A program made the position numbers and the translations under genes. Of a DNA stretch of 64,000 nt, positions 591 to 56,023 are shown piece by piece. Position 1 is the stretch's first letter. The number at the start of each line of letters is the position of its first letter. The stretch is from a bacterium (GTDB lineage: Bacteria; Patescibacteriota; Microgenomatia; Daviesbacterales; UBA10151). The notes below the pieces were generated by a model. It had not been told where the DNA came from. It was given only the letters and a program-made list of their open reading frames with translations, and did no database searches. The stretch spans positions 1 to 64,000 of the forward strand of contig JAJYNW010000006.1 in the NCBI GenBank assembly GCA_021786105.1, given 5' to 3'.

Positions 591-623
591 AAATTTATGC
601 TACATCAGGTTGTTTAAAGCCGG

Positions 624-652
624 GTTACAAACAGAAAAGAATTTTGTAAGAA
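624..652 (-). promoter_or_regulatory. TTCTTAC-type direct-repeat box upstream of DUF2267
   Basis: TTCTTAC-aaaa-TTCTTTT-ctgt-TTGTAAC; -10 TAGCAT at 597-602. Confidence 0.7.
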
Positions 653-657
653 AGAGT

Positions 658-2847
658 TTAAGTGGGAGAAGGGGTTGATGAAGTTGTGGGAGCGGGGGAG
701 ATTTCTAGGGTGGTTGTTGGTGAAGTGATCGGGGTTACTGATGGGGTGATTATTATATAGGTTGTGCCTGATGAGGTCGGAGTCGGAGGAGAAGCGGGTG
801 AGACAGCGGCGGAAGGGGTAGCCGTGTTTGTCAGGCAGTTTTTTAAGGGTTCGGTACCTTTGACAAAATATTCAAAGGCGGCAGAACTGGTGGCAATTTT
901 GGAAACAGGATTTGAGCCGCAAGTAGGGATTTTAACTATGCCTTCAGGCGGGGTAAATTGCTCAATAGGGGTTCCTTTTAAAAATTTCTCCATCAGATCC
1001 TGCCAAATTGGCGCAGCCCCTAAGGATCCAGCCACCCCATCCATTGGTTCGTTATAATTATTTCCTACCCATACCCCTACTACTAAACTGGGGGTATAGC
1101 CGATAGTCCAAGCATCTTTAAATTCCTCAGCTGTGCCGGTTTTGACGGCGGCAGGCCGGGAAATATTTAAAGCAGTGCCAAAAACTTCAGCCCGGGCTTT
1201 ATTGTCGGACAGAATTGAGGAGATTAAAAAGGTATATTTTTCATCAACTACCCGGGTGGGATTAGGCTGATATTTATAAATCAAATTACCCTTTTTGTCG
1301 GCAATCTCCAAAATTAAAGTCGGTTCGTTTCTATAGCCTTTGTTGGCAAATACCGCATAGGCGTTAGTCAGCTCTAATAGTTTAACCTCGCCTGTTCCTA
1401 GCACTAAGGCTAAGCCGTAGTTCTCCGGATCGCCCAGAGTAGTGATTCCTAAATTCTTGGCTGAATCCAGTGCATCCGGTACCCCGATTTTTTGCAGGAC
1501 CGAAACAGCCGGGATATTTAAAGAATTAGATAGCGCTCTCCTGACTGTCACCGGTCCCCGGTATCTTCGATCGTAGTCGACAGGTCGGTAATAAGCGTTT
1601 GGATCATTGGCTAAGTTGTAAAGAGCCGCGGCACGGGTGGGAAATCTGGCAAAAAATTTCTTTTCATCAAAGTTGGCAAATCTGGTCGGTTCATCCTGCA
1701 GTATTGTGGCAGGGGTAAGAAAATTTTCTTCAAAAGCCCGGATATAAACAATTGGTTTGAAGGCGGAACCTGGTGAGCGAAGCGAGACAGCAATATTAAC
1801 TTTGCCAAAACTGCTATTATTCCAGTCTTTGCTGCCGACTAAAGCTTTAACTTCAGAGGTTTTTGGATCCATGACAACGGCTGAGCCGTTGGAGACATTA
1901 TTAAACCTGAGGTTTTCTACTTGTCTGGCCACTGATTTTTCGGCATACTTTTGCCAATCTAAATCCAAAGTGGTTTTAACCTTAAAGCCGGACCGGGCCA
2001 CTACCTCTTCACCATATTGCTTGATTAGCTGGTCCCTGACCATTAGGGCAAAGTGGGGGGCGGTAGCGTTAAGATCGTTTTGGTGAGGGTCAAGCCCAAT
2101 ATCCTCCTTTAGGGCTTCGTCTTTTTGTTCAGGGGTAATATATTTTTGTTCCACCATTTTGTCTAAAACCAGTGCCTGTATTCTTTTGGCTTCGGTTAGA
2201 TCCCCGTTTAATAAAGAAAGCCGTGAGGGGGCCGGTAAGACGGCGGCTAAAATGGCGCTTTGGGCCAGGTTTAAATCTTTGGCGTGTTTGTTGAAGTAAA
2301 TATCGGCTGCTTCTTCTACTCCAAAAGAGCCTTCGCCAAAGTAGACGGAGTTTAAGTACATTTCTAAAATCTGGTTTTTGGTATATCTTCTTTCCAGTTC
2401 CTGCGACAAAACTATTTCCTGGGCTTTTCTCAAAAAATCCTTTCTGGGATTAAGCAGGGAATTTTTAACCAGTTGCTGGGTGATGGTGGAGGCTCCGTAC
2501 GTCAGCTGTTTTCCCTGAATATCCTCAAAAAAAGCCCGGATCATGGCGGTGATGGAAAAACCGGGATGGGAATAAAAATCCTTATCTTCCATGGCGATAA
2601 TGGCCTGTTGGGTAACTTTGGGGATATTAGACAAAGGCACCTCTTTTTTCAGCTTAGCGTCATAAAAAGTAAAAAAGAGGCGGCTTTTAGAATCAAATAG
2701 TTTAATCCCCTGATCATTATGATTGATTAAGGTTTCTCTGGGGGCTAAGTCTGAAGCAAAATGAATATAGGTTAGTATGGGTATGAGGCAAAGGAAAATG
2801 GTTACAGCAAAAAAAGCCACCAAAAGGTCGCGGCGCAGCCAAGTCAT
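658..2847 (-). CDS. Class A penicillin-binding protein (PBP1A family)
   Basis: N-terminal TM; GT51 motifs EDKDF, GASTITQQL; transpeptidase SAFK, SLN, KTG; Pro/Thr/Ser tail. Confidence 0.95.
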   Translation of the reverse strand: MTWLRRDLLVAFFAVTIFLCLIPILTYIHFASDLAPRETLINHNDQGIKLFDSKSRLFFTFYDAKLKKEVPLSNIPKVTQQAIIAMEDKDFYSHPGFSITAMIRAFFEDIQGKQLTYGASTITQQLVKNSLLNPRKDFLRKAQEIVLSQELERRYTKNQILEMYLNSVYFGEGSFGVEEAADIYFNKHAKDLNLAQSAILAAVLPAPSRLSLLNGDLTEAKRIQALVLDKMVEQKYITPEQKDEALKEDIGLDPHQNDLNATAPHFALMVRDQLIKQYGEEVVARSGFKVKTTLDLDWQKYAEKSVARQVENLRFNNVSNGSAVVMDPKTSEVKALVGSKDWNNSSFGKVNIAVSLRSPGSAFKPIVYIRAFEENFLTPATILQDEPTRFANFDEKKFFARFPTRAAALYNLANDPNAYYRPVDYDRRYRGPVTVRRALSNSLNIPAVSVLQKIGVPDALDSAKNLGITTLGDPENYGLALVLGTGEVKLLELTNAYAVFANKGYRNEPTLILEIADKKGNLIYKYQPNPTRVVDEKYTFLISSILSDNKARAEVFGTALNISRPAAVKTGTAEEFKDAWTIGYTPSLVVGVWVGNNYNEPMDGVAGSLGAAPIWQDLMEKFLKGTPIEQFTPPEGIVKIPTCGSNPVSKIATSSAAFEYFVKGTEPLKNCLTNTATPSAAVSPASPPTPTSSGTTYIIITPSVTPITSPTTTLEISPAPTTSSTPSPT

Positions 2848-2880
2848 AGTTAAAGCTTAATTAAGTTTTGTGGAAAGAAC

Positions 2881-2909
2881 GTGAGAATTATTAGAGAAGT
2901 ATGTAAGAA
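2881..2909 (-). promoter_or_regulatory. Triple TTCTTAC-type box upstream of PBP
   Basis: TTCTTAC-atac-TTCTCTA-ataa-TTCTCAC; -10 TAAGCT at 2854-2859. Confidence 0.7.
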
Positions 2910-2918
2910 TGGGAGGAG

Positions 2919-3992
2919 TTAGCCAAAATATTTCCAGGAATCATATTTAGTTTGAAGTTGGTCCTTGGTGACATTAACCGGTGGCAAACCGGCAGATTTT
3001 TCAAACCCAAAATCCAGGAGTTCTGCTGCCCACATATCTCTTTCTAAAACTCCCGGAGCGCCTAATACCACAGCTAATAATCTTTTGCCGCCTCTTTCGG
3101 AAAATACCACTGTGCAGTTGCCAGCTTTTTCCGTATTGCCAATTTTGACGCCCGCTACACCCGGATATACATCCAGTAATCCATTCCAGTTGTAAAGATC
3201 TGCCTGTTTGTGAGTACTTGTCGCCGGATAGAACTGGTAATCCTTGGTTACAATTTCCCTAAAAGTCGGATAATTTTTTAAGGCATAATTTGCCAGGATG
3301 GCTAAATCTTCCACGCTGCTGAAGTGAGTATCAGCATCAAACCCCTGCGGGTTATCAAAGTGGGTATTTTTTAGCCCTAAAACTTCAGCTTTAATATTCA
3401 TGGCTTTTATAAAAGTGCCGTTACCGTATTTTTGGTCAATATTATCTTTGAAAACTTGAGCCACATCATTGGCTGAAGTTAACAGCATGGCATTTAGCAG
3501 TTCGTTCCGACTCCACTTTTGTCCCGGCACGACCCCCATCCGGGTAGGCTGGACATTGGCCGCGTTTTGAGAGACGGTGAATTGGTCATTAGGGCTGGCC
3601 AAATCCATCACCACCACCGCGGTCATCATTTTAGTCAGAGAGGCCATCGGCAGTCTTTGATTAAGATTTTTTCCGGCGATTACCTGGCCGGTATCAGCAT
3701 CAACCACCGCATAGGCAGAAGCCTGGTTAAAATCAGCGGAAGTATCAACTGGAGTTTGGACATTGGCTTCCTTGATTTGAAAATTATTGGCAGTTTGGGC
3801 CAGCTTGGCACGGATATCATTAAACCGGTCAACGGTAATGGCCGGCTTAACCAGCGGTTGGGTGGCTGCTTGCTGGTGGGCCTTGATGGATTGGATAAAG
3901 GTCATGGCGAAACCGAAAACCAGCGCGACCACAAAAGGTTTCCAGCTGTGTGAAAGTATTTTGATGATAGGTTTTAAGTTATCCATATTCAT
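2919..3992 (-). CDS. D-alanyl-D-alanine carboxypeptidase (peptidase S11)
   Basis: PMASLTK, SAN and KIG (KTG variant) motifs; N-terminal TM. Confidence 0.9.
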   Translation of the reverse strand: MNMDNLKPIIKILSHSWKPFVVALVFGFAMTFIQSIKAHQQAATQPLVKPAITVDRFNDIRAKLAQTANNFQIKEANVQTPVDTSADFNQASAYAVVDADTGQVIAGKNLNQRLPMASLTKMMTAVVVMDLASPNDQFTVSQNAANVQPTRMGVVPGQKWSRNELLNAMLLTSANDVAQVFKDNIDQKYGNGTFIKAMNIKAEVLGLKNTHFDNPQGFDADTHFSSVEDLAILANYALKNYPTFREIVTKDYQFYPATSTHKQADLYNWNGLLDVYPGVAGVKIGNTEKAGNCTVVFSERGGKRLLAVVLGAPGVLERDMWAAELLDFGFEKSAGLPPVNVTKDQLQTKYDSWKYFG

Positions 3993-5302
3993 TAGATATT
4001 ATTCACCGCCTTGTTGGTCAAATCAGCGCTGGCCAACTGTTTCGGGCCGAATTTTTGTTCCAGCAAATTCCATAGTTCGGGCTTGCCGTCATCGTTGCCC
4101 AAAGCCCAAATGCCGACTCCGCCTAATCCTTTCTGTTTGGCAAAGTCATATTTAATGCCTAGGGATTTAGTATCTTCCATAAAGACCATTCTCCAGGTGT
4201 CTGTATTGGCGATATGGTAAGCAAAATAGCCGACTTTTCCGTCATCATCCCAGCCATTAATTACCTGGTCTACTCCGTTTAAAACCGAATTCCATGAATT
4301 GGCCACCAGAGAATAAGGTTCTGATTCCCCAGCACCCTTCCAGGAGGTTTGGGCTTTAACAGCCGGCTGATCGACCACATAGTTATACCCGTAATAAGGT
4401 ACGCCCAAAATTAATTTATTGGCAGGCATTAATCTGAGGAAGTCATTAACTGAGGTGGAGATATCATACCAATATTTTCCGTCCTGATATCCATATAAAG
4501 GAGCGGTCGGAATGGCATTGTCTGATCCGGCATTGGCAAAATCATAAGCCATCATAAAAATGCCGTCAGACATTTTACCCAAGGCGCCGATGTCATAAAT
4601 TTTCGGATCTTTAACAGCGGTGGCATATACGGAAACCGTCACTTTTGAACCAGGTACTTCTTGATGCATTCGGTTGGTTAAATCGGTTACAAACTGGGTA
4701 AAACGGTCCCGGTAATATTGGCCCGGATCGCCCTCGAATTCAAAATCTACGTTAATTCCGTCAATACCCCGTTGTTTGACTAACCCGACAGCCTGATCAA
4801 TGGCTGTTCTTTGGGCATTTGTGTCATCCATCAGTTGGGTAATCGAGCCATTATCCATTTGAGTTAAGGTTAAAACTACCCTGGTGTTATTTGAATGGGC
4901 CTTCCTGAAAAGATCTGTGGCCTGACTGCTGGCAAAAGTGTTGTAGCCGGGCGAATCCTTGACCAAATTGCCGTCGCTACCAACTTCAACTCCAAAATAT
5001 GCCAGCGTGGTTAAAACCTTAAAATCGATATTGGATAGTTTATTGATGTTCCAGTATGGAGCGAAACCAAAAACTTCGCTGGAATCCTTGACAGGGGTTA
5101 TGTGGGCTAAGGGCGCCTGAGTCGATGCTGGGGCCGGTGCTTGGGCAAGGACTGGTTTTGGGTTGGACGTTTTACCGCTGACTAAGATGGCGGCAATCAA
5201 AGTTAGGTACACGAAAATTACCAAACTTTGTTTGGCCTCCTGGAAAATTTGGGAAAAGAGGTTTTTAACCTCCTCATATGATGTGGACAGTAAATTCATC
5301 AT
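3992..5302 (-). CDS. Glycoside hydrolase family 18, membrane-anchored
   Basis: DGINVDFE catalytic motif, MAYD, KLILGVPYYG, GGVGIWALG. Confidence 0.9.
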   Translation of the reverse strand: MMNLLSTSYEEVKNLFSQIFQEAKQSLVIFVYLTLIAAILVSGKTSNPKPVLAQAPAPASTQAPLAHITPVKDSSEVFGFAPYWNINKLSNIDFKVLTTLAYFGVEVGSDGNLVKDSPGYNTFASSQATDLFRKAHSNNTRVVLTLTQMDNGSITQLMDDTNAQRTAIDQAVGLVKQRGIDGINVDFEFEGDPGQYYRDRFTQFVTDLTNRMHQEVPGSKVTVSVYATAVKDPKIYDIGALGKMSDGIFMMAYDFANAGSDNAIPTAPLYGYQDGKYWYDISTSVNDFLRLMPANKLILGVPYYGYNYVVDQPAVKAQTSWKGAGESEPYSLVANSWNSVLNGVDQVINGWDDDGKVGYFAYHIANTDTWRMVFMEDTKSLGIKYDFAKQKGLGGVGIWALGNDDGKPELWNLLEQKFGPKQLASADLTNKAVNNI

Positions 5303-5450
5303 AAGTTTAAAAAACTTTACACATTGTCGCTTTGATTAACTACGAAGAATCTAAAAAGCTTTTTGTCCGACCTTCGTGATTAATCAAGGTGGCAATGCGG
5401 AATACTGTACTAATGAAGTAAAAAAAGGTTCTTCTGAACCTGAAGTGCGT

Positions 5451-5479
5451 ATGTTAACAGAGATGTAAAGTCTTGTCAA
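5451..5479 (-). promoter_or_regulatory. Sigma70-type promoter of the GH18-dacA operon
   Basis: TTGACA-17 nt-TAACAT with extended TG. Confidence 0.65.
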
Positions 5480-5500
5480 TAAACCTATAGAATGCAATAT

Positions 5501-5713
5501 TTAGAGGGAAATTGTGGAGGTTTGAGGAGTTTCCCTAGTTTCTTCACTATTTTTCGGGCTGTTTCCTGCTTGCGACTTCATGAAGTCAATAAAGACTAGG
5601 CCGAGAACTATTAAAGCAGTTATAAGAGTTAAGAAGATTATCAGAACTTTGTTGTCAAAGTTTTCCTTTAAAGCCGGTGATTTGAGTAGTGGAGTATTTA
5701 TTAAAATATTCAT
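5501..5713 (-). CDS. Small single-pass membrane protein
   Basis: One hydrophobic helix; ATGA overlap with upstream gene. Confidence 0.6.
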   Translation of the reverse strand: MNILINTPLLKSPALKENFDNKVLIIFLTLITALIVLGLVFIDFMKSQAGNSPKNSEETRETPQTSTISL

Positions 5714-5961
5714 GTTTTGCCAAAAGCCCTTTCGATAAACATTAAAAACAATGCGCCTAAAGCTGCAACGGCAATGGAGGGGAAGTTAAATCCGGAAATC
5801 CCGATGCCAAAAACTAAATTACCTAAAATTCCGCCTAATATGGCCCCTAAGATAGCTAAAATTACGGAACCCAAAACGCCTCCTCTTGAAGGATAAGGGT
5901 CAATTAGGTTAGCAATTACTCCGATAATAAGTCCGAAAATGATCCATAAAGGAATATTCAT
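5710..5961 (-). CDS. GlsB/YeaQ/YmgE family stress-response membrane protein
   Basis: WIIFGLIIGVIA...ILGAILGG pattern. Confidence 0.9.
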   Translation of the reverse strand: MNIPLWIIFGLIIGVIANLIDPYPSRGGVLGSVILAILGAILGGILGNLVFGIGISGFNFPSIAVAALGALFLMFIERAFGKT

Positions 5962-6002
5962 ACTATATACAAATGATACTTTTTGAAAATTAAAACCGAC
6001 AC

Positions 6003-6043
6003 AAAAAGAGGTAAGAAGTCAGCAAGAATCTTACCTCTTTTTT
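6003..6043. terminator. Hairpin with A/T tails, overlapping a TTCTTAC box (6011-6028)
   Basis: AAAAAGAGGTAAGA / TCTTACCTCTTTTT inverted repeat just after the 6057..6218 ORF. Confidence 0.6.
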
Positions 6044-6056
6044 AAACATTTATCCC

Positions 6057-6218
6057 TTACCTCTCACCCTCCATGTCCTCCATATAATAGGGATTGTCCT
6101 CGTTTTTATTTGTCCTTCCTCTTCCTATATCATGATAAGCTGGTTGTTCTTTCTTCATCCCCTGATTCTTTCTGCCGGTTTTGGAAGACTTTGATTGCTT
6201 GCCTTTTTTCATCGCCAT
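6057..6218 (-). CDS. 53-aa hydrophilic protein not in the ORF track (MAMKKGKQSKSSKTGRKNQGM...EGER)
   Basis: Strong SD GGAGAGGGGGTGA, -10 TAAACT at 6249-6254, TTATTAC boxes at 6287-6304, downstream hairpin. Confidence 0.7.
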   Translation of the reverse strand: MAMKKGKQSKSSKTGRKNQGMKKEQPAYHDIGRGRTNKNEDNPYYMEDMEGER

Positions 6219-6375
6219 GCTAATCACCCCCTCTCCTGTTCATTTGGTAGTTTACTTTTCTTCATTAATGAAAATGTGCTTTTTTTGTAATAACTTTGTA
6301 ATAAAGACCCCTTTTCTATTGAACAATAAAATTGATGTATATATAATTCGAATACTCGGAAATATTTCTTAAATT

Positions 6376-7047
6376 ATGGTGAGTAAAGTATTAATTGTTG
6401 AAGACGACACAGGTTTGCAGAAATATTTAAAAGAACTTTTGTTAAATAATGAATATTCTCCCCAAGCGGTTTCTGACGGTATATCTGCCATAAATTTCAT
6501 CTCCAAATCCGCCCCGGATTTAGTTATTCTGGATTTAGGGTTGCCTAATATGAGCGGCGAGTCGGTTTGTCAGGAAATCAGGAAGGATCACCCGGAAGTG
6601 CCGGTTATTATTTTGACTGCCCGGGACGGCATGTCTGATATTGTGCAGGGGTTGAATTTGGGGGCAGATGACTATATTACCAAACCATTTGTGGCTGATG
6701 AATTGTTGGCTCGGATTAAAGCCCGGCTGCGCCGTACCGGCGAGCCGGAAAGCAAACTAAGGATTTCCGACTTGGAGCTTGATAGGAAAACATTTGAGGT
6801 TAAAAGAGAGAGTAAAAGCATTCAGCTGACTCCCCAGGAGTTTAAATTACTGGAATATTTAATGCATAATAAAGGCCGGATTTTGACCAGAGAAATGATT
6901 CTTAACAGGGTTTGGCTGTATTCTCAGGATATTGAAACCAGAGTGGTGGATGTATATATGGGATATTTGCGGAAAAAGATTGACGGCGGATATAAGAAAA
7001 AGCTTCTTCACTCGGTCAGGGGTTTTGGGTACATGATTAAAGATTAG
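6376..7047 (+). CDS. OmpR/PhoB-family response regulator
   Basis: VEDD, ILDLGLP, GADDYITKPF receiver motifs; winged helix LTPQEF...SVRGFGY. Confidence 0.95.
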   Translation: MVSKVLIVEDDTGLQKYLKELLLNNEYSPQAVSDGISAINFISKSAPDLVILDLGLPNMSGESVCQEIRKDHPEVPVIILTARDGMSDIVQGLNLGADDYITKPFVADELLARIKARLRRTGEPESKLRISDLELDRKTFEVKRESKSIQLTPQEFKLLEYLMHNKGRILTREMILNRVWLYSQDIETRVVDVYMGYLRKKIDGGYKKKLLHSVRGFGYMIKD

Positions 7048-8212
7048 GGTTTAACAGTTTAAGCTTGGGTAGCTTTACTTCAACAGTAGTGCCCTTATTT
7101 TCTTTAGATCTGATGTTAATGATACCGCGGTGCTGGGCTACAATATTTTTGGCTAAAAAGAGTCCCACCCCCATGCCTTCTCCGCTGTGATTTCCGCCCC
7201 GGTAAAACATTTGGCAAACTCTCGGCAGGTCTTTTTTAGATATCCCTTTACCCTGATCCTTAACCTGGCAAATCACATAACCGGATTTATGTTTCAGGGA
7301 GATGACGATACTTTTATCCAAAGGAGAAAATTTGGCGGCATTGTCCAGCAAATTAAGAATTGTTTGCAGTAATTTATTGTAGTCACCGATAATCCTATCG
7401 TGGCCGGGCATTAATTTGTTTTCCATTAAAATTTTATTATGAGGACGGATAAAGCGAAAATCTAAGAGTGCCTTGTCTACGATCTCTTTTAAATAACATT
7501 CCTCCCAGACATAGCGAAATTTGCCGGTTCTAATTCGGTCTATTTCCAGTAGCTCATTAACCAGCTGGCCCAGTCTGTAGCTTTCCCAGGACAATTCTTC
7601 AATCCACCTTGATTCAGGAGTATTAGTTTCTGCCAGTTTAGAATAGAGGAGCTGGGTATAGCCGTTGATGGTGGTCAATGGCGTTTTTAGCTCATGGGCA
7701 GCCATGGAAATAAACAGATCCCTGGTTTCCATGGCCTTTTGGGCTTGGAATTGGAGTTGGGCTTTGCGGATGGTTAATACAACCAGGGGGGCAAACAGTT
7801 TCAACATATCCTTCTCTTTTTCCGAAAAAAATTTATTCTTCAAAGACATAAAGGAAATTACCCCGATAGGTTTGATACGGTCGGATAGAGGTAGGATGAT
7901 AACCGAATGGATCTTTGTTTCTTTGATTTCCGGGTGATGCCGGAATATCTGTTTGGCGTTTAAAATAACCGGTTCCCGTGCCTTTAGAGCCCGGTACATA
8001 AAATCCCTTTTGCGTGGTTTAATTTTACAAAAAACCGGTGCAGAAGCGTAAGCTTTTTTCAATTCTTTATTATCAAGCAATAAAATTGAGCCAAAATCTG
8101 TCTGGGTAAGTTTAATCCCTTCTTCCACAATCTGCCTGTAGGTATCCGGCAAGCTTAAAGGCGACAAGAATTTGAGTCCTGATTGGTAAATTGCTTCCAG
8201 GGTATTGTCCAC
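7037..8212 (-). CDS. Cytoplasmic GAF-domain sensor histidine kinase
   Basis: HELKTPL H-box, NLLDNAAKF, DQGKG, GMGVGL; no TM; convergent with the regulator. Confidence 0.92.
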   Translation of the reverse strand: MDNTLEAIYQSGLKFLSPLSLPDTYRQIVEEGIKLTQTDFGSILLLDNKELKKAYASAPVFCKIKPRKRDFMYRALKAREPVILNAKQIFRHHPEIKETKIHSVIILPLSDRIKPIGVISFMSLKNKFFSEKEKDMLKLFAPLVVLTIRKAQLQFQAQKAMETRDLFISMAAHELKTPLTTINGYTQLLYSKLAETNTPESRWIEELSWESYRLGQLVNELLEIDRIRTGKFRYVWEECYLKEIVDKALLDFRFIRPHNKILMENKLMPGHDRIIGDYNKLLQTILNLLDNAAKFSPLDKSIVISLKHKSGYVICQVKDQGKGISKKDLPRVCQMFYRGGNHSGEGMGVGLFLAKNIVAQHRGIINIRSKENKGTTVEVKLPKLKLLNPNL

Positions 8213-8323
8213 AGTCTATTTTCCGATTAAGACTACTATATATTTATATGGATTTCAGTGGATAATCTAACAATATTCATTTAGGACTTGTAGAAAGTCT
8301 GTTTTTTGTTATGTTACTATACT

Positions 8324-9393
8324 ATGAGATTCGCTGAAGGCGAAATGATGCCAGCCATAATTTCTGTTGGTATGGCAACAGGGGATAGACTTGTTACAAA
8401 CACCGATGTTGATGTTTGCCTGGGGAAAAAAATTGGGTTCACGAATAGAGTAATGAATGGGGTTGGTATTGAACAAAGATTTTGGGTAAAAGAGGGGCAG
8501 GCAACTTCTGATTTATGTGTTGGAGCGCTTCGACAGGCAATAGATTCCGCTGGAATAGTGTCTGCTGATATCACCAGCTTGCTTGTAGCTACATCTTCTC
8601 CTGATATGCAGGCAGTCTCTACGGCCGCAGTAATTCAAAAGAAACTGGCTTTGTCTAACCGGATTCTTGCAAGTAATAATAGTGATGCTTGTCCGGGGTT
8701 TATTTTTGGGTTACATAGGGCTTTTACAGGTTTAACAAGTCCTCTTGGAGAAAAAGGTTATTATGGAGTAATTGGCGGGGAAGTAATGAGCCCGGTAATA
8801 GGTAAAGATGATGAGTTTTCTCATGAAAAGAGAAGAAGAGAATCGATTGCTATTCTAGTCGGAGATGCTGCAGGTGCAGTAATTGCTAAAATGGTTACTC
8901 CGGATAAAGAAGCACCAACAAATATGGGTTTTGCTTTTGGAGCAGACGGGGAATATGCAGACGAATTGGGGGTTGAGGCGGGAGGAAGTAAATTACCGAT
9001 AAATTTAACAGTCGTTCAGGAGGGAAGGCTTATCTTCATATGGACGGAAAGGCAATATTTAAGCAGGCCGTAAGAAGGATGTCAGAGGTGGCAAAAGAGG
9101 CTTTAGCCAGGGCAGAGGTTCCGATAGAAGAAATTGATTTTTTTGTACCACACCAGGCAAACGGAAAAATAATTAAAGCGGTAGCAGAAAGTTTAGGAGT
9201 TGCGATGGAAAAAGTAATTGTTATCATCAATAAGTACGGAAATACTTTATCTTCATCGATCCCAATTGCTTTATGCGAAGCTGTTAATAGCGGAAAAATT
9301 CGCCGTAATCATATGATTGCTACGGCTTCTTTCGGAGCAGGGATAGCATTTGGTGCTGCAGTCCTTCCTATGGTGGGTTTACCTAAATCTTAA
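8324..9393 (+). pseudogene. fabH: 3-oxoacyl-ACP synthase III (FabH-like), split by a 1-nt frameshift near 9030
   Basis: First frame has GIEQRFW, VATSSPD, DACPGF, GDAAGA; second has MDGKAIF, PHQAN, YGNT, FGAG. Confidence 0.8.
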
Positions 9394-20699: not shown

Positions 20700-20793
20700 A
20701 TTTATCTTTTAGAATTCTTACTAACTTCTTACTTTATTGTTATTTTTTAGATATAGAGTGATGTTGATAATAAATATTGACAAGGAGGAAGAT

Positions 20794-22170: not shown

Positions 22171-22559
22171 GGTGTCAATACTGCAGTTTAAGGTCTGTGC
22201 CCGATGATGAGGTTGCTAAGAAGCAAATTGTTGGTGTTTTTCTTGGAAACTTTGGAAATATCCAGTTTTGGCTCATCAATGGGAGCTGTCCAAAGGGTAA
22301 ATAAGGCACCGAAGATTGAATCCTCAAAGATTTGTTTAATTTTAGGACTAAGTTTGACCCTGCTCATCTGCTCTTACTCAGTTGAAGGGTAGGTCCAAGA
22401 AATTTTAGGCAGATATATATTTAAATTTTGATCTCCTGGTTATTCTTGGTAATCTCTGGCAGGAAATCCTATCAGGTATTTTCCTACCCTCAAACCTGAG
22501 CTTGAACGTATTCTAAACTTTGAAAATAAGAAGAAGAATAAAATAATGTAATAATTATG

Positions 22560-23831
22560 TCAGAACATATATTGGTGGTTGCGGGAGTGCAGCAGGGCAG
22601 GGATCATTTTTGAATCAAGGTGATTGATTTTATCAATCAGGCTAAAGTCTTTTGGATCGGAAAATGGGATCTGTATGCGTTCCCCGATATCTTTATTCCA
22701 GAATCTGAACCATCTTTTTTCCGGCATGCCCAGGCTGGCAAATAAATGCGGGAAAAATTTATCTCCGATGATGTATATAACATCATCCCGGATTTCCTGA
22801 ACTTGCGGGGAAAGTAAATTATGGTGACCGGAATCTAGAAGATGGAATTCTTCCTTCACGATCTCCCTTTGTATGCGATCAAGCTTTATTTCTCCCCTAT
22901 CGTCAAGTTCCAGTATTAACCAGGCATTTTGCCGGGCGCTTTCAGTGGCTGTATAAAGGGTGCCAAAGCTTATAGGGTAATCTGCCATTTTCTGAAGCGC
23001 TTCCTCGGTTACTTCTATATTCATATCTTGATCCAGCCATTGACCGATTTCTTTCGGTGTGGCATCCGGAGGTAACTTCGATCTTTTACTTAACCTGCGG
23101 GCTTCTGATTTGGCATCGGTCAGCAGCGCATAAACAGTGACATTCTTTGGATTCTCGGAACAAAGATGTTTTATGAGAGTGAAGCCCCGGTTGGATCCTA
23201 AGTAAGAATAACCGTTTGATGTTCTTGAGGTAACATCTGAAACGCCGGAAGCGGTCATGGCGGGGAAATCAAGTGCCGTAATGCCAATATGGTTTCTGTC
23301 TATGGTCGGCATCAGACTGCCTGGTTGCATTCCGTTTTTGGCTATTTCAACGGCCGGGAATCCAACATTGGTGATGATGTCAAAATCATCAGGAGACCAC
23401 CTGCCCAGTTCTTTGGATTCTACCAGATTAGATCCTTCTGCTGTCCGGATCATATTGATAAAAAGCAGCCGGTAATAAACGAGCACTTGCCGAGAGTTTC
23501 TTGAACCGGGATAGGGTACAATCCAGTCTTGATTATCGACTTCTTCCATAGATGGTTCCATAAGAGCGTAGATAAAATTGTTCATGAACTGATTTAAGGT
23601 ATCGGTTTTTCCCCAGGCTGGGGCGCCGATAGAAACAACAAAGTTCATTTTTCCGCGGGGAGGTGTTTGGACCCGGTTAAAGAGATCCTGAAAGAGTTCG
23701 GTAAATTGCGGGTCAGATCTTCCTTCCTTATTAGTAAAAGGTTTCAAGTAGTTCAGGATTTCTGCTCCCGGAGACATATCCCATATAGCATACATGGCCG
23801 GTGTTTGCTCCGGGCGGAAGCCATAGTTCAT
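22560..23831 (-). CDS. Hypothetical protein with a Walker A-like motif
   Basis: VVSIGAPAWGKT; ATGA-coupled to the kinase. Confidence 0.65.
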   Translation of the reverse strand: MNYGFRPEQTPAMYAIWDMSPGAEILNYLKPFTNKEGRSDPQFTELFQDLFNRVQTPPRGKMNFVVSIGAPAWGKTDTLNQFMNNFIYALMEPSMEEVDNQDWIVPYPGSRNSRQVLVYYRLLFINMIRTAEGSNLVESKELGRWSPDDFDIITNVGFPAVEIAKNGMQPGSLMPTIDRNHIGITALDFPAMTASGVSDVTSRTSNGYSYLGSNRGFTLIKHLCSENPKNVTVYALLTDAKSEARRLSKRSKLPPDATPKEIGQWLDQDMNIEVTEEALQKMADYPISFGTLYTATESARQNAWLILELDDRGEIKLDRIQREIVKEEFHLLDSGHHNLLSPQVQEIRDDVIYIIGDKFFPHLFASLGMPEKRWFRFWNKDIGERIQIPFSDPKDFSLIDKINHLDSKMIPALLHSRNHQYMF

Positions 23832-24988
23832 ATTTTTGCTTTTGCTAATTGTACTTCTACCAAAGTTCCTTTGCCAGGATGTGATTTAATTTTAATTGAG
23901 CCTCGGTGTTTTTCAATAATACTTTTACACAAGAATAATCCCAGCCCCATTCCTTTAGAGGTGTCGTCCTCCTTTTTGTAGTAGCCTTCAAAGACCTTTG
24001 GTAAATCTTTTTTGCTAATTCCTTTACCCTGATCAATAACCCGCAAAACATAATTATGAGGTTTGGAGTCCAGGCGGATGGTGATCTGGGTATCCGGTGA
24101 GGAAAATTTAGCCGCATTCTCCAAAAGATTGTTAAGAACTTGTAATAGTTTGTCAAAATCCCCAATAATTTTATCATTTGGATTGTTAAGGAGATCTTCA
24201 AATATAATTTTTCTGTCCGGGTAGTTTAATTTAATTTTTTGAATTGCCATGTAGATAATTTCTTTCAAAGAACATTCCCTAAAAACGTACTGCAGTTCTC
24301 CTGACTTAATACGCTCGATTTCCAAAAGTTCTTTAATTAAAAGAGTCAGATGATAACTTTCCGCATGCAGAAATTTAATCCATTTTGCTTCTGTGTTATT
24401 TCTTCCACTGCTTTTGGTATTTAGAAGCTGAGTGTAGCCAAAAATAGTGGCTACAGGGGTACGTAGCTCGTGTGCTGCCAAAGAAATAAACAAATCTCTG
24501 TTTTTCAAAGCTTTCCTTGTCTCATCATAAAGCTGCGTCTTTCTGATTGCCATAGAGGCCATGGAGGCAAACAGGCTTAAGATTTTTAGCTTATCATTAT
24601 TAAAATGCTTCTCTTTACATGATAATACAGTTAAGACTCCAATAGACTTCTTGTGGTATGACAAAGGAATAATCATGGTAGATTTCATCCCTGCAGCTTC
24701 TAGCTGGGGATGAATTTTAACCATCTTTTCTATTTTAGTGATTAAAGGTTTATGGCTTGTATAAGCTTGATATACAAAACCTTTTTTACGTTGTTTAAAA
24801 GAATATAAGACAGCAGATGTAGCATATACTCTTTTAAGCTTTTTTCCTTGCTTTAAGAATATAGAAGCATCATCAGCCTGCACTAATTTTTTGGCCTCTT
24901 TGCCTACTATTGCATAAGTTTCCTCCGGGGTTAGCGGTTCCAGAAGCTTTAATCCTGATTTATAGATTTCCTCAAGAATATTTTCCAT
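23828..24988 (-). CDS. Cytoplasmic GAF-domain histidine kinase, paralog of 7037..8212
   Basis: HELRTP, NLLENAAKF, DQGKG, GMGLGL; MENILEEIYKSG aligns with MDNTLEAIYQSG. Confidence 0.92.
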   Translation of the reverse strand: MENILEEIYKSGLKLLEPLTPEETYAIVGKEAKKLVQADDASIFLKQGKKLKRVYATSAVLYSFKQRKKGFVYQAYTSHKPLITKIEKMVKIHPQLEAAGMKSTMIIPLSYHKKSIGVLTVLSCKEKHFNNDKLKILSLFASMASMAIRKTQLYDETRKALKNRDLFISLAAHELRTPVATIFGYTQLLNTKSSGRNNTEAKWIKFLHAESYHLTLLIKELLEIERIKSGELQYVFRECSLKEIIYMAIQKIKLNYPDRKIIFEDLLNNPNDKIIGDFDKLLQVLNNLLENAAKFSSPDTQITIRLDSKPHNYVLRVIDQGKGISKKDLPKVFEGYYKKEDDTSKGMGLGLFLCKSIIEKHRGSIKIKSHPGKGTLVEVQLAKAKI

Positions 24989-25052
24989 GGAGTGCTCGCT
25001 GAAGGAATAATAATAACAGGTCTTGAGGTTATTGCAATACAAAAACCTAATC

Positions 25053-25081
25053 TTCTTACATATTTCTTACTGAATTCTTAT
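25053..25081 (+). promoter_or_regulatory. Triple TTCTTAC box
   Basis: TTCTTAC-atat-TTCTTAC-tgaa-TTCTTAT. Confidence 0.75.
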
Positions 25082-25150
25082 AGGATTTTGTAGTATCTCT
25101 CTTTATTGTTGTTTCATAAGGAACCTAGCCCAAGTGGTTAGGTTTTTATT

Positions 25151-51357: not shown

Positions 51358-51512
51358 AAGGTTTATATTCTACCAATTTACGCACTAAAGCGCTACTTTG
51401 GCGATAATGTAATTTATATACCGCTGAGCTTGTTTGTTTATGATATTCCCAATAAATTGCATTGTCAGGTCCTCTATGTTATATTAGGCCAAATCTGCCC
51501 GCAATAAAGAAT

Positions 51513-51938: not shown

Positions 51939-51986
51939 TTATTTATTTTAAACCTCTAAGATACAGAATATGCTAGACTGGCTTTA

Positions 51987-52661: not shown

Positions 52662-52735
52662 GGCTCATAGTGGTATGATATGCAGACTGCTTATGAACCG
52701 CCATGAGGGGCGGTTTTTTGGTGAGAAAGAAATTT

Positions 52736-54523: not shown

Positions 54524-54552
54524 CCTGTAACCTTCCAGGTTGAGGCACGAAT

Positions 54553-54837
54553 TTAGTCCTTGTCTTGGTGTTCCAATTCATCTTTGTGGATTTCTTCATC
54601 AATTCCTAACTCACCTGGATGATCTTCGTCCTGGTTCTCATACAAACCTGCTTCATGGGCATCATCTAAAGTGTCATCATCTGATTCCGGGTCCGGGGTT
54701 GAACCGCTGGTAGTTTGCTCTCCGGTTTTAATATCTTCCGGAACCGCCTTCTCATGTTTTTGCTGATCAGGCTCAAGCCTTTTAGTTCTTCTGGTCTTAA
54801 AATAGATAATCGTTCTTTGATCTTTTCTTTTGGGCAT
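54553..54837 (-). CDS. Small acidic hydrophilic protein
   Basis: SGSTPDPESDDDTL; -10 TAGATT at 54844-54849 and TTCTTAC at 54893-54899. Confidence 0.7.
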   Translation of the reverse strand: MPKRKDQRTIIYFKTRRTKRLEPDQQKHEKAVPEDIKTGEQTTSGSTPDPESDDDTLDDAHEAGLYENQDEDHPGELGIDEEIHKDELEHQDKD

Positions 54838-54911
54838 GTTTACAATCTATATCAGGAATATATCTATTGCAACAAAATAGGGCATTAAATTGGTAAGAAA
54901 ATATTGTGCTG

Positions 54912-54984
54912 CGCCCCTGGAAGGATTTGCACCCTCGACCCTTTCGTCCGAAGCGAAATGCTCTATCTGCTGAGCTACAGGGGC
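54912..54984 (-). tRNA. tRNA-Arg (TCG)
   Basis: Acceptor GCCCCTG/CAGGGGC; anticodon arm TTTCG-CTTCGGA-CGAAA; T-loop TGCAAAT. Confidence 0.9.
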
Positions 54985-55087
54985 TTGAATGTCTAAACGA
55001 CATTCAAGCCGGTCAATATCTTTTTATCGACGAAGTCGAAATATAATCATTGTTTGACCGACACGCCGTCTAGATAGCTATATTCTA

Positions 55088-55906
55088 TCATCTTAGGAGT
55101 TCCAATGCCCCGTAAAGACCGGCATCATCATCCAGCGAGCATTTAGTAATCAGGGGAGCCTGGGGAAAGACGGTTAAGAATCGATTTAAATAGCCTTGAA
55201 CTTTTTCTAAAGGGATAGACCGGGAGACACTGCCGCCCAAAATAAAAATATCCGGTGACCAATGAACTGCTACGTTAGTCAAACCAATTGCCAAATATTT
55301 TGCTATTTCATCCCAAATTTGCGGATCAGTAATATTTTCCCCCTTTTGCCCATATATTTTCTCCAAATACGATCCGCCAACATAAGATTCCCAATGGCCT
55401 TTGCCGCCACAAGTGCAAAGGTTGCCTTCCGGCACAATAATTTGGTGTCCTGGTTCAAAGCCTAAAGAGTTTTTATCGATTTTCCCCGCCACAATTCTGA
55501 CTCCGCCAATGCCGGTGCCAATGTTAATAAAAGCTACGATACCTTTTCCTTGTCCGGTGCCTTTGGCGGCTTCACCTAAGCCTTCGATGGCTGTATCATT
55601 TTCCAGGTAAGCTTGACAACCAAATGCTTTTTCCAGTTCCAGCTTTAGTGGTTTACCCGCCCAACTTGAAGCGTGGGCACTTTTAGCCAAGGCTGTTTTT
55701 TCGTGGTTCAGAACTCCGGCGATGCCTCCTGCAACGCCTTCAATTTTTTCGCCCCCTGAAAGTTCCCCGGTTATTTTTTTTAGTGTTAGGACGCCTTGAC
55801 CAAAATCATCTGGCTTCGAAACTATTTTTGATTCCTTGATGGTTTCTCCGTCCGGAGAAACACCCAACCTCATATTGGTCCCGCCAATATCAAATACAAA
55901 ATACAT
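55088..55906 (-). CDS. ROK family sugar kinase (glucokinase-like)
   Basis: DIGGT, END, GTGIGG, EPGH...CTCG. Confidence 0.93.
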   Translation of the reverse strand: MYFVFDIGGTNMRLGVSPDGETIKESKIVSKPDDFGQGVLTLKKITGELSGGEKIEGVAGGIAGVLNHEKTALAKSAHASSWAGKPLKLELEKAFGCQAYLENDTAIEGLGEAAKGTGQGKGIVAFINIGTGIGGVRIVAGKIDKNSLGFEPGHQIIVPEGNLCTCGGKGHWESYVGGSYLEKIYGQKGENITDPQIWDEIAKYLAIGLTNVAVHWSPDIFILGGSVSRSIPLEKVQGYLNRFLTVFPQAPLITKCSLDDDAGLYGALELLR

Positions 55907-56023
55907 ATTTTGATTCTAGCATACCATAAAAAATCTATCACCCATCTCTTACTGGATTTTAATTCAATCCTAAAATTGCCGGAGTAAGATTTAAGCGTAA
56001 AGGATGAAAAATGAGGTAAGGAG

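What the first reader, a model, noticed from the sequence alone, without database searches (positions are those of the whole stretch)
597..55990. Candidate OmpR-family stress regulon: TTCTTAC boxes at fixed offsets from -10 at nine promoters
Seen: 7-mers with 11-bp period lie 22/33/44 nt from a TAnnnT hexamer at 624-652 (DUF2267), 2881-2909 (PBP), 6011-6028 (GlsB/YeaQ), 6287-6304 (53-aa ORF), 11212-11240, 20704-20732 (antitoxin-PIN), 25053-25081 (HAD, 1 nt off), 54893-54899 (acidic protein) and 55946-55963 (sortase substrate, weaker). Established: OmpR/PhoB regulators bind 11-bp-period direct repeats at the -35 region. Inference: the regulator at 6376 and the two soluble GAF kinases activate stress and envelope genes.
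Basis: partly seen in the sequence, partly recalled or inferred. Interest (0 to 1): 0.82.

Follow-up and report, generated by a model that had tools for sequence, protein, structure and literature searches.

The report
Response-regulator stress regulon in a CPR bacterium
A small uncultivated bacterium carries about forty promoters built from 11-bp-spaced TTCTTAC repeats in place of a -35 box, and these repeats occur only in relatives that also keep one particular OmpR-type response regulator, so this is a textbook kind of regulon newly mapped in a lineage whose gene regulation is almost unknown.

Summary
TTCTTAC-like heptamers in 2-4 direct copies at an 11-bp period end 10 bp upstream of a TAnnnT -10 hexamer.

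Across the 1.04-Mb genome about 37-40 such promoters exist; a reversed-sequence control gave 0-1. In 18 of 33 top intergenic hits the -10 lies exactly 50 nt from the start of repeat 1 (about 1.1 expected). None of 30 aligned sites has a usable -35. About half put the start codon at +62 to +67, which implies leaderless mRNAs.

The motif tracks the response regulator at 6376-7047:
- In 41 relatives, 19 of 20 genomes with the orthologue have at least 2 pattern hits, against 1 of 21 without it.
- In a 151-genome class sample, genomes with the orthologue average 6.8 hits and those without average 0.46.
- It does not track the second OmpR-type regulator or a receiver-less Trans_reg_C protein.
- Soluble GAF kinases co-occur with the regulator (18 of 20 against 0 of 21).

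Targets include DUF2267, YflT, BON, YeaQ-like and DUF308 proteins, rhomboids, an accessory PBP1A and glycosyltransferases.

Verdict: a new member of a known kind (a PhoB/PhoP-style direct-repeat activator regulon). DNA binding and phosphotransfer are untested.

The parts
6376..7047 (+). OmpR/PhoB-family response regulator (223 aa), the proposed binder of the TTCTTAC repeats
   Evidence: Pfam Response_reg 2.1e-29 and Trans_reg_C 8.4e-26. It scores below every NCBIfam equivalog cut-off: MtrA 214.9 against 300, PhoB 212.9 against 296.2. The closest solved structure is M. tuberculosis PhoP, 1.1e-48. Its phyletic profile matches the motif.
7037..8212 (-). Soluble GAF-HisKA-HATPase_c histidine kinase (HK1), convergent with the regulator and overlapping its 3' end
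   Evidence: Pfam. There is no hydrophobic 19-aa stretch; the maximum Kyte-Doolittle mean is 1.37. A full-length or partial relative lies within the fetched flank of the regulator orthologue in 4 of 13 other loci (L018, L019, L026, L027). The family co-occurs with the regulator.
23828..25042 (-). Second soluble GAF-HisKA-HATPase_c kinase (HK2, 46% identical to HK1); its upstream end abuts the 25053 repeats
   Evidence: Pfam. Identity to HK1. Maximum hydropathy 1.06. The likely true start is the internal Met at about 24988, judged from the translation.
597..652 (-). Promoter 1: R1-R4 plus -10 TAGCAT, leading to DUF2267 gene 156-590 (ATG at +62, leaderless geometry)
   Evidence: 37.0 bits. DUF2267 1.1e-34.
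2854..2909 (-). Promoter 2: repeats plus -10 TAAGCT, leading to accessory class-A PBP gene 658-2847 (ATG at +62)
   Evidence: 26.5 bits. Transgly and Transpeptidase domains. The site is conserved upstream of orthologues in 8 of 12 loci and is found at 0 of 18 loci of the universal paralogue.
5973..6028 (-). Promoter 3: repeats plus -10 TATCAT, leading to YeaQ/GlsB-like gene 5710-5961 and the 70-aa ORF 5501-5713. R1 and R2 also lie inside a terminator-like hairpin that follows the 53-aa ORF.
   Evidence: 37.8 bits. PRK10457 3.3e-14, below its cut-off. Orthologous sites are seen in L016, L018, L019, L025 and L027. The hairpin is read.
6249..6304 (-). Promoter 4: TTATTAC x2 plus -10 TAAACT, leading to a basic 53-56-aa ORF (6057-6227). 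It is divergent from the regulator gene, 72 nt away.
   Evidence: Pattern hit with only 10.3 bits on the matrix. The same site type lies next to the regulator gene in G006, G009, G011, G012 and G015.
11212..11267 (+). Promoter 5: repeats plus -10 TACAAT, leading to ORF 11294-11983 (no Pfam family)
   Evidence: (23.8 bits).
20704..20759 (+). Promoter 6: repeats (two perfect TTCTTAC) plus -10 TAGAGT, leading to a small ORF ending at 21000. The likely start is ATG 20794, which follows AGGAGG.
   Evidence: (29.3 bits). There is no Pfam hit, so 'antitoxin-PIN' is not confirmed.
22510..22565 (-).
   Evidence: 34.2 bits. Fold z-score -4.0. Conserved in relatives. RNAalifold finds 7 of 30 pairs with compensatory changes. 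No Rfam match at E <= 1.
25053..25096 (+). Promoter 8: three near-perfect repeats (TTCTTAC, TTCTTAC, TTCTTAT), with -10 TAGTAT 1 nt off the +39 register, leading to ORF 25151-25945. It is divergent from HK2.
   Evidence: 29.6 bits on the 33-nt matrix; 11.6 bits on the 56-nt matrix because the -10 is shifted.
54844..54899 (-). Promoter 9: one perfect repeat plus degenerate repeats, -10 TAGATT, leading to acidic 94-aa ORF 54553-54837 (ATG at +62)
   Evidence: 16.4 bits. Composition is 28 D+E residues of 94. A tRNA-Arg gene lies just upstream.
55935..55990 (+). Promoter 10: repeats plus -10 TAAGAT, leading to a small secreted Pro/Thr-rich ORF 56024-56230. ORF 56295-56939 follows and carries an LITC motif that I recall as sortase-like.
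   Evidence: 33.8 bits. Translations. No Pfam hit for 56024-56230. The sortase reading is from recall and ORF 56295-56939 was not scanned.

Best explanation
**What it is.** The TTCTTAC repeats are most likely the binding sites of the OmpR/PhoB-family response regulator encoded at 6376-7047.

**How it most likely works.**
- One or both cytoplasmic GAF-domain histidine kinases (7037-8212 and 23828-25042) phosphorylate the regulator. This step is inferred.
- Head-to-tail regulator dimers then occupy two to four 11-bp units. R1 and R2 are strong sites at about -62 to -45. R3 and R4 are weaker sites at about -40 to -23, ending 10 bp upstream of the -10.
- These promoters have no -35 hexamer. The bound regulator would recruit the primary-sigma RNA polymerase to a TAnnnT -10.
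- About half of the transcripts would start at or within 5 nt of the start codon, which makes them leaderless.

**The regulon.** It holds about 37-40 promoters in a 1.04-Mb genome. The genes belong to general-stress and envelope families, and many are themselves accessory genes found only in genomes with the regulator.

**Shown here:** the promoter architecture, its statistics, its conservation, and its co-inheritance with the regulator and the GAF kinases.

**Inferred:** DNA binding, activation rather than repression, the kinase-regulator pairing, the signal sensed, and the transcription start sites.
For: **1. Architecture**
- There is a spacing peak at 11 bp.
- The -10 sits exactly at +50 in 18 of 33 hits.
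- The profile of 30 aligned sites shows R1 to R4 with decaying information, then a 10-bp gap, then TAnnnT.
- 0 of 30 sites match TTGACA at 4 or more of 6 positions with a 16-18 bp spacer. Among all upstream TAnnnT hexamers the figure is 18%.

**2. Only three Trans_reg_C proteins are in the genome** (genome 92% complete).

**3. Phyletic profile in 41 relatives**
- Orthologues of the 6376 regulator (at least 51% identity) are in 19 genomes. G015 adds a twentieth: its regulator gene runs off a contig start, and the N-terminus MVSKILIVED is visible.
- At least 2 pattern hits occur in 19 of these 20 genomes and in 1 of the 21 others. That one is G019, with 2 hits against 3 for the reversed control.
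- Before G015 was reclassified, Fisher's test gave 1.7e-8 and Mann-Whitney 3.2e-7. The genomes are related, so these P values overstate the case.

**4. Class-wide sample of 151 genomes**
- 28 genomes carry the orthologue and total 190 hits (mean 6.8); 20 of the 28 have at least 3.
- The 123 genomes without it total 56 hits (mean 0.46); 2 of the 123 have at least 3. One of those two is five identical copies of a single repeat.

**5. Rival regulators fail the same test**
- Orthologues of the contig-14 regulator occur without the motif in G002, G027, G029, G030, G034, G037, G039 and G040, which have 0-1 hits.
- The motif is present without that regulator in G003, G006, G009-G012, G016 and G018.
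- The receiver-less Trans_reg_C protein is present in the motif-free G002, G007, G013, G017 and G024. It is absent from the motif-rich G003, G006, G014 and G036.

**6. Sites lie beside the regulator gene** in G001, G005, G006, G009, G011, G016, G018, G036 and in several other families.

**7. The DNA-binding region is nearly invariant.** The stretch LTREMILNRVWLYSQDIETRVVDVYMGYLRKKID hardly changes among orthologues down to 54% overall identity, and it differs in the paralogue.

**8. Orthologous promoters keep the repeats while their spacers drift**.

**9. Kinase co-occurrence.** Full-length GAF kinases are in 18 of 20 regulator-positive and 0 of 21 regulator-negative relatives.

**10. Known precedent.** PhoB binds a 22-bp site of two 7-bp direct repeats, each followed by a 4-bp A/T-rich stretch (PMC4971064, passages read). 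Streptomyces PhoP uses two to six 11-nt direct-repeat units (PMC3479208, Introduction passage read).
Against: - No binding, expression or transcription-start data exist for this organism.
- The co-occurrence evidence cannot separate the regulator from any other factor inherited with the same accessory gene set.
- The genomes compared are related, and many are incomplete metagenome-assembled genomes.
- Four regulator-positive class genomes have only 1 pattern hit (G094, G102, G105, G133). G020 among the relatives also has 1.
- G127 has 5 hits but no orthologue at E <= 1e-60.
- No strong site sits in the activating orientation upstream of the regulator gene itself, so the common autoregulation signature is not evident. 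Its own promoter looks like a sigma-70 promoter, as I read it.
- The kinase lies within the fetched flank of the regulator in only 4 of 13 other loci.
- Gene starts come from a crude longest-ORF caller, so the +62 leaderless geometry is an inference.
- Four of 12 orthologues of the accessory PBP have no site of at least 8 bits within -260 to +40.
Confidence: 0.8

Rival explanations
1. The repeats are bound by another DNA-binding protein that is inherited together with the same accessory gene set. On this reading the 6376 regulator is only a neighbour or a member of the regulon.
For: The phyletic evidence is correlative. Several targets (DUF2267 and the accessory PBP1A) show the same patchy distribution as the regulator. 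An unrecognised factor could do the same. Many regulon proteins have no Pfam family.
Against: Head-to-tail heptamers at an 11-bp period ending 10 bp from the -10 are the signature of OmpR/PhoB winged-helix dimers (PMC4971064 and PMC3479208, passages read). The genome holds only three such domains, and two are excluded by their distribution. The regulator's DNA-binding region is nearly invariant wherever the motif is found. Sites cluster next to the regulator gene across families.
Confidence: 0.1
2. The motif belongs to the second OmpR-type regulator (contig 14, L009:2947-3621) or to the receiver-less Trans_reg_C protein on contig 8.
For: Both carry a Trans_reg_C domain. Five motif sites lie within 12 kb of the contig-14 regulator; one heads the rhomboid gene just upstream of it.
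Against: Neither distribution matches the motif. The contig-14 regulator sits with its own kinase and a HlyD/ABC/MacB-FtsX transporter. It scores closest to the CopR/CusR subfamily. It is separated from the rhomboid gene by an opposite-strand ORF and has a TTGGAC-18-TAAAAT promoter.
Confidence: 0.03
3. The repeats are promoter elements read directly by RNA polymerase: an alternative or ECF sigma factor, or an UP-element-like phased T-rich DNA. No activator is involved.
For: Two short sigma-70-family proteins (181 and 201 aa frames) exist besides the 370-aa one. The repeats are T-rich and phased with the DNA helix.
Against: The best-conserved repeats lie at about -62 and -51, too far upstream for sigma region 4. 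The -10 is the primary-sigma type TAnnnT. Close relatives lacking the regulator have background counts only. I did not profile the distribution of the small sigma factors.
Confidence: 0.04
4. It is a classical phosphate-starvation (Pho) regulon and the regulator is the PhoB/PhoP orthologue.
For: The geometry is like a pho box: the box ends 10 bp upstream of the -10 and replaces the -35 (recalled for E. coli). PhoB is the second-best NCBIfam model.
Against: The PhoB equivalog score is 212.9 against a cut-off of 296.2. No PhoU was found, and no PstB reached its cut-off; the best was 141.9 against 343.2 (genome 92% complete). No phosphate-uptake or phosphatase family is among the roughly 30 targets scanned, apart from one HAD hydrolase. 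The kinases are soluble GAF proteins, not PhoR-like membrane kinases.
Confidence: 0.03

Closest known systems
E. coli PhoB and the pho box
   Same: Both use 7-bp direct repeats followed by a 4-bp spacer, an 11-bp unit bound by head-to-tail winged-helix dimers (PMC4971064, passages read). In both, the box takes the place of the -35 hexamer and ends about 10 bp upstream of the -10; the E. coli geometry is recalled. Both are activator-dependent promoters of the primary sigma factor.
   Different: The consensus differs: TTCTTAC here, CTGTCAT for PhoB (recalled). The strongest repeats here are the distal pair at about -62 and -51. The regulator fails the PhoB equivalog cut-off. No Pst or PhoU system was found. 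The kinases are soluble GAF proteins. The targets are stress and envelope genes.
Streptomyces PhoP (11-nt direct-repeat units) and Bacillus subtilis PhoP core binding region
   Same: Both use arrays of two to six weakly conserved 11-nt units, with at least two needed (PMC3479208, Introduction passage read). The B. subtilis four-repeat core between about -60 and -20 (recalled, not checked here) matches the R1-R4 span of -62 to -23.
   Different: The organism, motif sequence and regulon content differ. Nothing links this regulon to phosphate.
Mycobacterium tuberculosis PhoP, MtrA and RegX3 (closest solved structures)
   Same: These are the best sequence matches among solved structures: PhoP 1.1e-48, MtrA 2.1e-46, RegX3 1.1e-45. 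The receiver residues align, including D53, T81 and K103.
   Different: The regulator scores below the MtrA equivalog cut-off, 214.9 against 300. The recognition-helix region differs: VDVYMGYLRKK here against VESYVSYLRRK in the PhoP alignment.
General stress regulons driven by alternative sigma factors (for example B. subtilis sigma-B)
   Same: The gene content overlaps by family name: YflT, DUF2267, BON/OsmY-like, YeaQ/GlsB-like and DUF308/HdeD-like. That these families are stress-linked is recalled from annotation, not tested.
   Different: Control here would come from a two-component response regulator acting on primary-sigma promoters, not from a sigma-factor switch.

Membership tests
OmpR/PhoB family response regulators | N-terminal receiver domain with the phospho-acceptor Asp and the conserved acidic, Thr and Lys residues | tested here: met
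   Pfam Response_reg 2.1e-29. E9, D10, D53, T81 and K103 are invariant in the alignment of 11 sequences. D53 aligns with the equivalent Asp of M. tuberculosis PhoP.
OmpR/PhoB family response regulators | C-terminal winged helix-turn-helix (Trans_reg_C) domain | tested here: met
   Pfam Trans_reg_C 8.4e-26, residues 147-220.
OmpR/PhoB family response regulators | Binds tandem direct repeats with a period of about 10-11 bp at or upstream of the -35 | not testable with these tools
   Such repeats exist and co-occur with the gene. Physical binding was not and cannot be tested here.
OmpR/PhoB family response regulators | Phosphorylated by a cognate histidine kinase | not testable with these tools
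   A convergent GAF-HisKA-HATPase kinase overlaps the gene's 3' end. The kinase family co-occurs with the regulator in 18 of 20 against 0 of 21 genomes. Phosphotransfer is untested.
PhoB / Pho regulon | Regulator reaches the PhoB equivalog score | tested here: not met
   TIGR02154 scores 212.9 against a cut-off of 296.2. NF007546 scores 147 against 471.
PhoB / Pho regulon | Pst transporter and PhoU are present and under the motif | tested here: not met
   No PhoU match. The best PstB-model hit is 141.9 against a cut-off of 343.2. The genome is 92% complete, so absence is not proven.
MtrA (MtrAB system) | Regulator reaches the MtrA equivalog score | tested here: not met
   NF040689 scores 214.9 against a cut-off of 300.
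Activator-dependent (class II-like) sigma-70 promoters | Recognisable -10, no -35 consensus, and an activator site overlapping the -35 position | tested here: met
   TAnnnT is fixed at +50. 0 of 30 sites match TTGACA at 4 or more of 6 positions. R4 ends 10 bp upstream of the -10. Activity was not measured.
Leaderless mRNAs | Transcription starts at the start codon | tested here: inconclusive
   The start codon is at +62 to +67 in 19 of 36 sites that have an ORF. That places it 6-11 nt after the -10. Genome-wide, TAnnnT starts at -12 in 139 of 1103 crude genes, against about 20-60 at the offsets from -40 to -19. There are no transcription-start data.

The most novel reading that the evidence does not exclude
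The regulator, its soluble GAF kinases and about 40 target promoters form a self-contained, patchily inherited 'general stress module' of this CPR class. The targets include accessory genes such as an extra PBP1A and DUF2267, and an undescribed structured RNA of about 135 nt. A single OmpR-type regulator acting on -35-less, largely leaderless promoters would do the job that alternative sigma factors do in other bacteria. The module would be gained or lost as a unit.
Probability: 0.35. Interest if true: 0.65.

Novelty: new member of a known kind. Interest (0 to 1): 0.5.

Why it matters
Gene regulation in CPR (Patescibacteria-type) bacteria is almost unstudied because few of them are cultivated. 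My four literature searches on CPR or Patescibacteria regulation and one on the motif turned up no description of such a regulon.

This finding gives a defined motif, a named candidate regulator and kinases. It also gives about 40 predicted target promoters and a clean presence/absence pattern across 151 genomes. The regulator can be expressed in E. coli and tested by DAP-seq or EMSA without growing the organism.

It also indicates that leaderless transcription is common in this genome. And it points to a conserved structured RNA, with no Rfam match, under the same control.

The mechanism itself is textbook, so the value is a first regulatory map for the lineage rather than a new principle.

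Tried and rejected
No earlier findings were seen.
- **Expression data.** The look-up of sequencing runs listed no RNA holder. Read laying was therefore not used, and there is no expression or transcription-start evidence either way.
- **The search for related loci** with the regulator returned mostly distant OmpR-family genes at 35-44% identity. Only two were useful: L027 at 79% and L028 at 54%. I used the genome search for the comparative work instead.
- **Literature.** Searches for a published CPR or Patescibacteria regulon, motif or leaderless promoters found nothing relevant (listings and abstract openings only). The three papers containing 'TTCTTAC' were seen as listings only and look unrelated. 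Supplementary files were not consulted.
- **DUF2267 as a conservation test**. The family is in only 3 of 41 genomes, so it served as a distribution datum rather than a promoter-conservation test.
- **Chance or low-complexity explanation:** rejected by the spacing, reversed-sequence and offset controls.
- **Mobile repeat explanation:** rejected for G000 because the flanks differ between sites. The five hits in G109 are one identical repeated sequence and were not counted as promoters.
- **Terminator-only reading of 6000-6040:** rejected because the same stretch has the full R1-R4 and -10 geometry and is conserved upstream of the YeaQ-like gene in relatives. The hairpin may still act as a terminator.
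- **** was a faulty, empty script. It printed nothing and was not used.
- **Not profiled:** the small sigma factors.

Full report
**Setting**

The window is contig C20:1-64000 of a 1,037,274-bp assembly in 26 contigs, 92% complete, with GC of about 0.40. The small size and the nearest named relative of the regulator suggest a CPR/Patescibacteria-type organism. That relative is a Candidatus Levyibacteriota MAG at 54% identity. This placement is an inference. The 79% hit in the same call is labelled Gammaproteobacteria, which I take to be a mislabel without having checked it.

All nine sites are present where stated. Exact TTCTTAC is only mildly enriched in the window: 18 against 10.4 +/- 3.3, with 1 of 100 shuffles reaching 18. 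The arrangement is what is far from chance.

- Genome-wide, same-strand pairs of heptamers with at most 1 mismatch peak at a spacing of 11 bp. There are 33 pairs there, against 4-17 at each of the other 52 spacings tested.
- I called ORFs crudely: 1105 ORFs covering 91.6% of the genome. I then trained a 33-nt matrix on 633 upstream regions.
- On a whole-genome scan, 20 of 21 hits of at least 20 bits, 33 of 44 of at least 16 bits, and 58 of 140 of at least 12 bits are intergenic.
- The -10 lies outside that matrix, so it is an independent check. TAnnnT starts exactly 50 nt after the first base of repeat 1 in 18 of 33 intergenic hits of at least 16 bits. It starts at +39 in 5, at +51 in 3 and at +61 in 3. 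The background rate is 0.034 per position, giving P = 2.6e-18. Among 82 hits inside my ORF calls, only 6 have it at +50.

**Architecture**

Aligning 30 sites on the -10 gives this layout:

| Element | Positions | Consensus |
|---|---|---|
| R1 | 0-6 | TTCTTAC |
| R2 | 11-17 | TTCTTAC |
| R3 | 22-28 | TT(T/C)TnAC, weaker |
| R4 | 33-39 | nTTTnA, weaker still |
| gap | 40-49 | no conservation |
| -10 | 50-55 | TAnnnT |

- None of the 30 sites matches TTGACA at 4 or more of 6 positions with a 16-18 bp spacer. Among all TAnnnT hexamers in upstream regions, 18% do.
- A 56-nt matrix built from these sites finds 39 hits of at least 16 bits against 0 on the reversed genome, and 43 against 1 at 14 bits. 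It is partly circular because it was trained on 30 of the hits.
- The untrained pattern (R1, R2, 32 N, TAnnnT, at most 2 mismatches) finds 21 hits against 0 for its reversed control.
- After removing overlaps, 40 sites score at least 14 bits, and 36 of them have an ORF of at least 40 aa starting within +57 to +260. In 19 of those 36 the start codon lies at +62 to +67, six of them exactly at +62. That is 6-11 nt after the -10, the geometry of leaderless or nearly leaderless mRNAs.
- This is not special to the regulon. TAnnnT begins at -12 from the start codon in 139 of 1103 crude genes, against about 20-60 at the offsets from -40 to -19.

**Sites in the window**

Ten sites are listed under 'parts'. 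Eight score at least 16 bits on the 56-nt matrix. Two score lower but are credible for other reasons.

- The 25053 site has three near-perfect repeats, but its -10 is 1 nt off register. It scores 29.6 bits on the 33-nt matrix.
- The 6249-6304 site (TTATTAC x2) is weak on the matrix. It recurs next to the regulator gene in G006, G009, G011, G012 and G015.

The window is 6% of the genome and holds 8 of the 37 sites of at least 16 bits. Other clusters lie on contig 6 at 84-99 kb and on contig 14 at 15-28 kb.

**Which protein reads the motif?**

The genome has three Trans_reg_C proteins:
- the regulator at 6376-7047;
- a second receiver-plus-Trans_reg_C regulator on contig 14;
- a 391-aa protein on contig 8 with no receiver domain.

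*Forty-one relatives.*
- Orthologues of the 6376 regulator (at least 51% identity, full length) occur in 19 genomes including G000.
- Their pattern-hit counts are 21, 5, 7, 21, 7, 10, 6, 3, 10, 9, 4, 3, 1, 2, 2, 5, 6, 2 and 24.
- The other 22 genomes have 0-2 hits, the level of the reversed control, except G015 with 12.
- G015 turned out to carry the regulator gene. It is cut by the start of contig C37: the reverse strand of its first 32 bases encodes MVSKILIVED.
- The corrected table is therefore at least 2 hits in 19 of 20 regulator-positive genomes and in 1 of 21 regulator-negative ones. The exception, G019, has 2 hits against 3 in its control.
- The tests (Fisher 1.7e-8, Mann-Whitney 3.2e-7) used the uncorrected table and ignore relatedness.

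*Class-wide sample of 151 genomes.*
- 28 genomes from at least 13 families have the orthologue and together hold 190 hits (mean 6.8). Twenty of the 28 have at least 3.
- The 123 without it hold 56 hits (mean 0.46). Two have at least 3: G109, whose five hits are one identical repeated sequence, and G127.
- One of the 28 (G091) is flagged as unpublished. The result does not depend on it.

*The other two candidates.*
- Orthologues of the contig-14 regulator (at least 58% identity) occur in eight genomes that lack the 6376-type regulator and have 0-1 hits. They were not found in G003, G006, G009-G012, G016 and G018, which have 3-10 hits.
- The contig-8 protein is present in the motif-free G002, G007, G013, G017 and G024. 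It was not found in the motif-rich G003, G006, G011, G014, G018 and G036.
- The contig-14 regulator sits with its own kinase and a HlyD/ABC/MacB-FtsX transporter. It has a TTGGAC-18-TAAAAT promoter.

*Further support.*
- Motif sites lie directly beside the regulator gene in many genomes and families.
- The regulator's DNA-binding region is almost invariant among orthologues, even at 54% overall identity, and differs in the paralogue.
- The YeaQ-like promoter keeps R2, R4 and the -10 across G000, G001, G006, G014 and L027 while its spacers change.
- The accessory PBP1A gene has a site of at least 12 bits in 8 of 12 orthologous loci. The universal PBP1 paralogue has none of at least 8 bits in 18 of 18 loci.

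**Kinases**

Both GAF-HisKA-HATPase_c proteins (7037-8212 and 23828-25042) lack any hydrophobic segment.

- Full-length relatives occur in 18 of the 20 regulator-positive relatives. They were not found in G028, and G036 has a different kinase next to its regulator.
- They occur in 0 of the 21 regulator-negative relatives.
- A relative of the kinase lies within the fetched flank of the regulator orthologue in 4 of 13 other loci.
- The genome has eight HATPase_c hits in all, so the pairing remains an inference.

**Regulon content**

Pfam and NCBIfam name these targets:
- stress-type families: DUF2267, YflT (two), a BON-domain protein, a YeaQ/GlsB-like protein, DUF308, a PEBP protein and a protein with mechanosensitive-channel TM helices;
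- envelope and cell-surface families: class-A PBP, rhomboid (two), PGA_cap, GT9 and GT1/GT4 glycosyltransferases, and a bactofilin-like protein;
- others: a SAM methyltransferase, a HAD hydrolase and a Gmad2 protein;
- many small proteins with no family.

'Stress' rests on family names, not on any test. Several targets are accessory genes:
- DUF2267 is in 3 of 41 relatives, all of them regulator-positive.
- Orthologues of the regulon's PBP1A (at least 54% identity) are in 12 of 41, all regulator-positive once G015 is counted.

**Mechanism and comparison with known systems**

The layout matches what is known for OmpR/PhoB-family activators.

- PhoB dimers bind 22 bp made of two 7-bp direct repeats, each followed by 4 A/T-rich bases (PMC4971064, passages read).
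- Streptomyces PhoP needs at least two and uses up to six 11-nt repeat units (PMC3479208, Introduction passage read).
- I therefore propose two head-to-tail dimers on R1-R2 and R3-R4, with the proximal dimer standing in for the missing -35.
- The regulator is not an orthologue of any characterised one. It falls below every NCBIfam equivalog cut-off.
- This is not a Pho regulon. No PhoU was found, no PstB reached its cut-off, and the targets are unrelated to phosphate.
- Three sigma-70-family genes exist. An ECF-sigma explanation is unlikely, because the -10 is of the primary-sigma type and the best-conserved repeats lie at -62 and -51.

**Verdict**

The mechanism is of a well-known kind. What is new is the motif, the regulon and the lineage. 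Interest is moderate (0.5).

Noticed in passing
window 22368-22503 (-), downstream of the promoter at 22510-22565: A conserved structured RNA of about 135 nt. MFE is -42.7 kcal/mol with z = -4.0. DNA identity is 71-78% in at least 8 relatives, where it often lies next to the GAF kinase or the regulator gene. The RNAalifold consensus has outer stems CUCAG/CUGAG and GGGGGUAGG/CCUACCCYU, and 7 of 30 pairs show compensatory changes. There is no Rfam match at E <= 1. A partial second copy is at G000:C26:40930-41006. It is a candidate new sRNA or leader under the same regulator.
   Followed up: partly
whole genome G000: Leaderless transcription looks common. TAnnnT starts at -12 from the start codon in 139 of 1103 crudely called genes, against about 20-60 at the offsets from -40 to -19.
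   Followed up: partly
window 6000-6042 (-): Repeats R1 and R2 of the YeaQ-like promoter lie inside a 9-bp-stem hairpin, GAGGTAAGA...TCTTACCTC, flanked by A and T runs. It follows the stop of the 53-aa ORF directly. This may be a terminator and an activator site sharing the same bases. A similar hairpin is visible in L027.
   Followed up: partly
window 21526-22143 (-): A LexA gene (LexA_DNA_bind plus Peptidase_S24) lies downstream of the structured RNA and a 59-aa ORF. It has what looks like its own TTGACA-type promoter. Whether read-through from the regulator-dependent promoter reaches it is unknown.
   Followed up: no
window 8306-9393 (+): FabH-like gene appears split. ORF 8306-9073 carries ACP_syn_III and the overlapping ORF 9040-9393 carries ACP_syn_III_C. 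This could be a frameshift, a pseudogene or an assembly error.
   Followed up: no
window 14359-14426 (-): DUF3800-II RNA (Rfam RF02961) at 73.8 bits against a gathering score of 43.2.
   Followed up: no
G000 contig 14, L009:2947-8508: The second two-component system is a CopR/CusR-like regulator plus a 337-aa kinase. It is followed by HlyD, ABC ATPase and MacB/FtsX permease genes, so it probably regulates local efflux.
   Followed up: partly
G000 contig 6 at 84-99 kb and contig 14 at 15-28 kb: Regulon promoters cluster in islands. There are eight sites on contig 6 and five on contig 14, often as divergent pairs, for example C6:98718-98773(-) with 98788-98843(+).
   Followed up: partly
G109 (class sample): Five identical copies of one 56-nt sequence matched the pattern. 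This is a dispersed repeat, not a set of promoters.
   Followed up: no
window 1-10000: Five DNA runs hold at least 0.91 of the sampled words. They come from two studies, and three of the samples may be the source. They are labelled mine drainage and mine tailings metagenomes.
   Followed up: no
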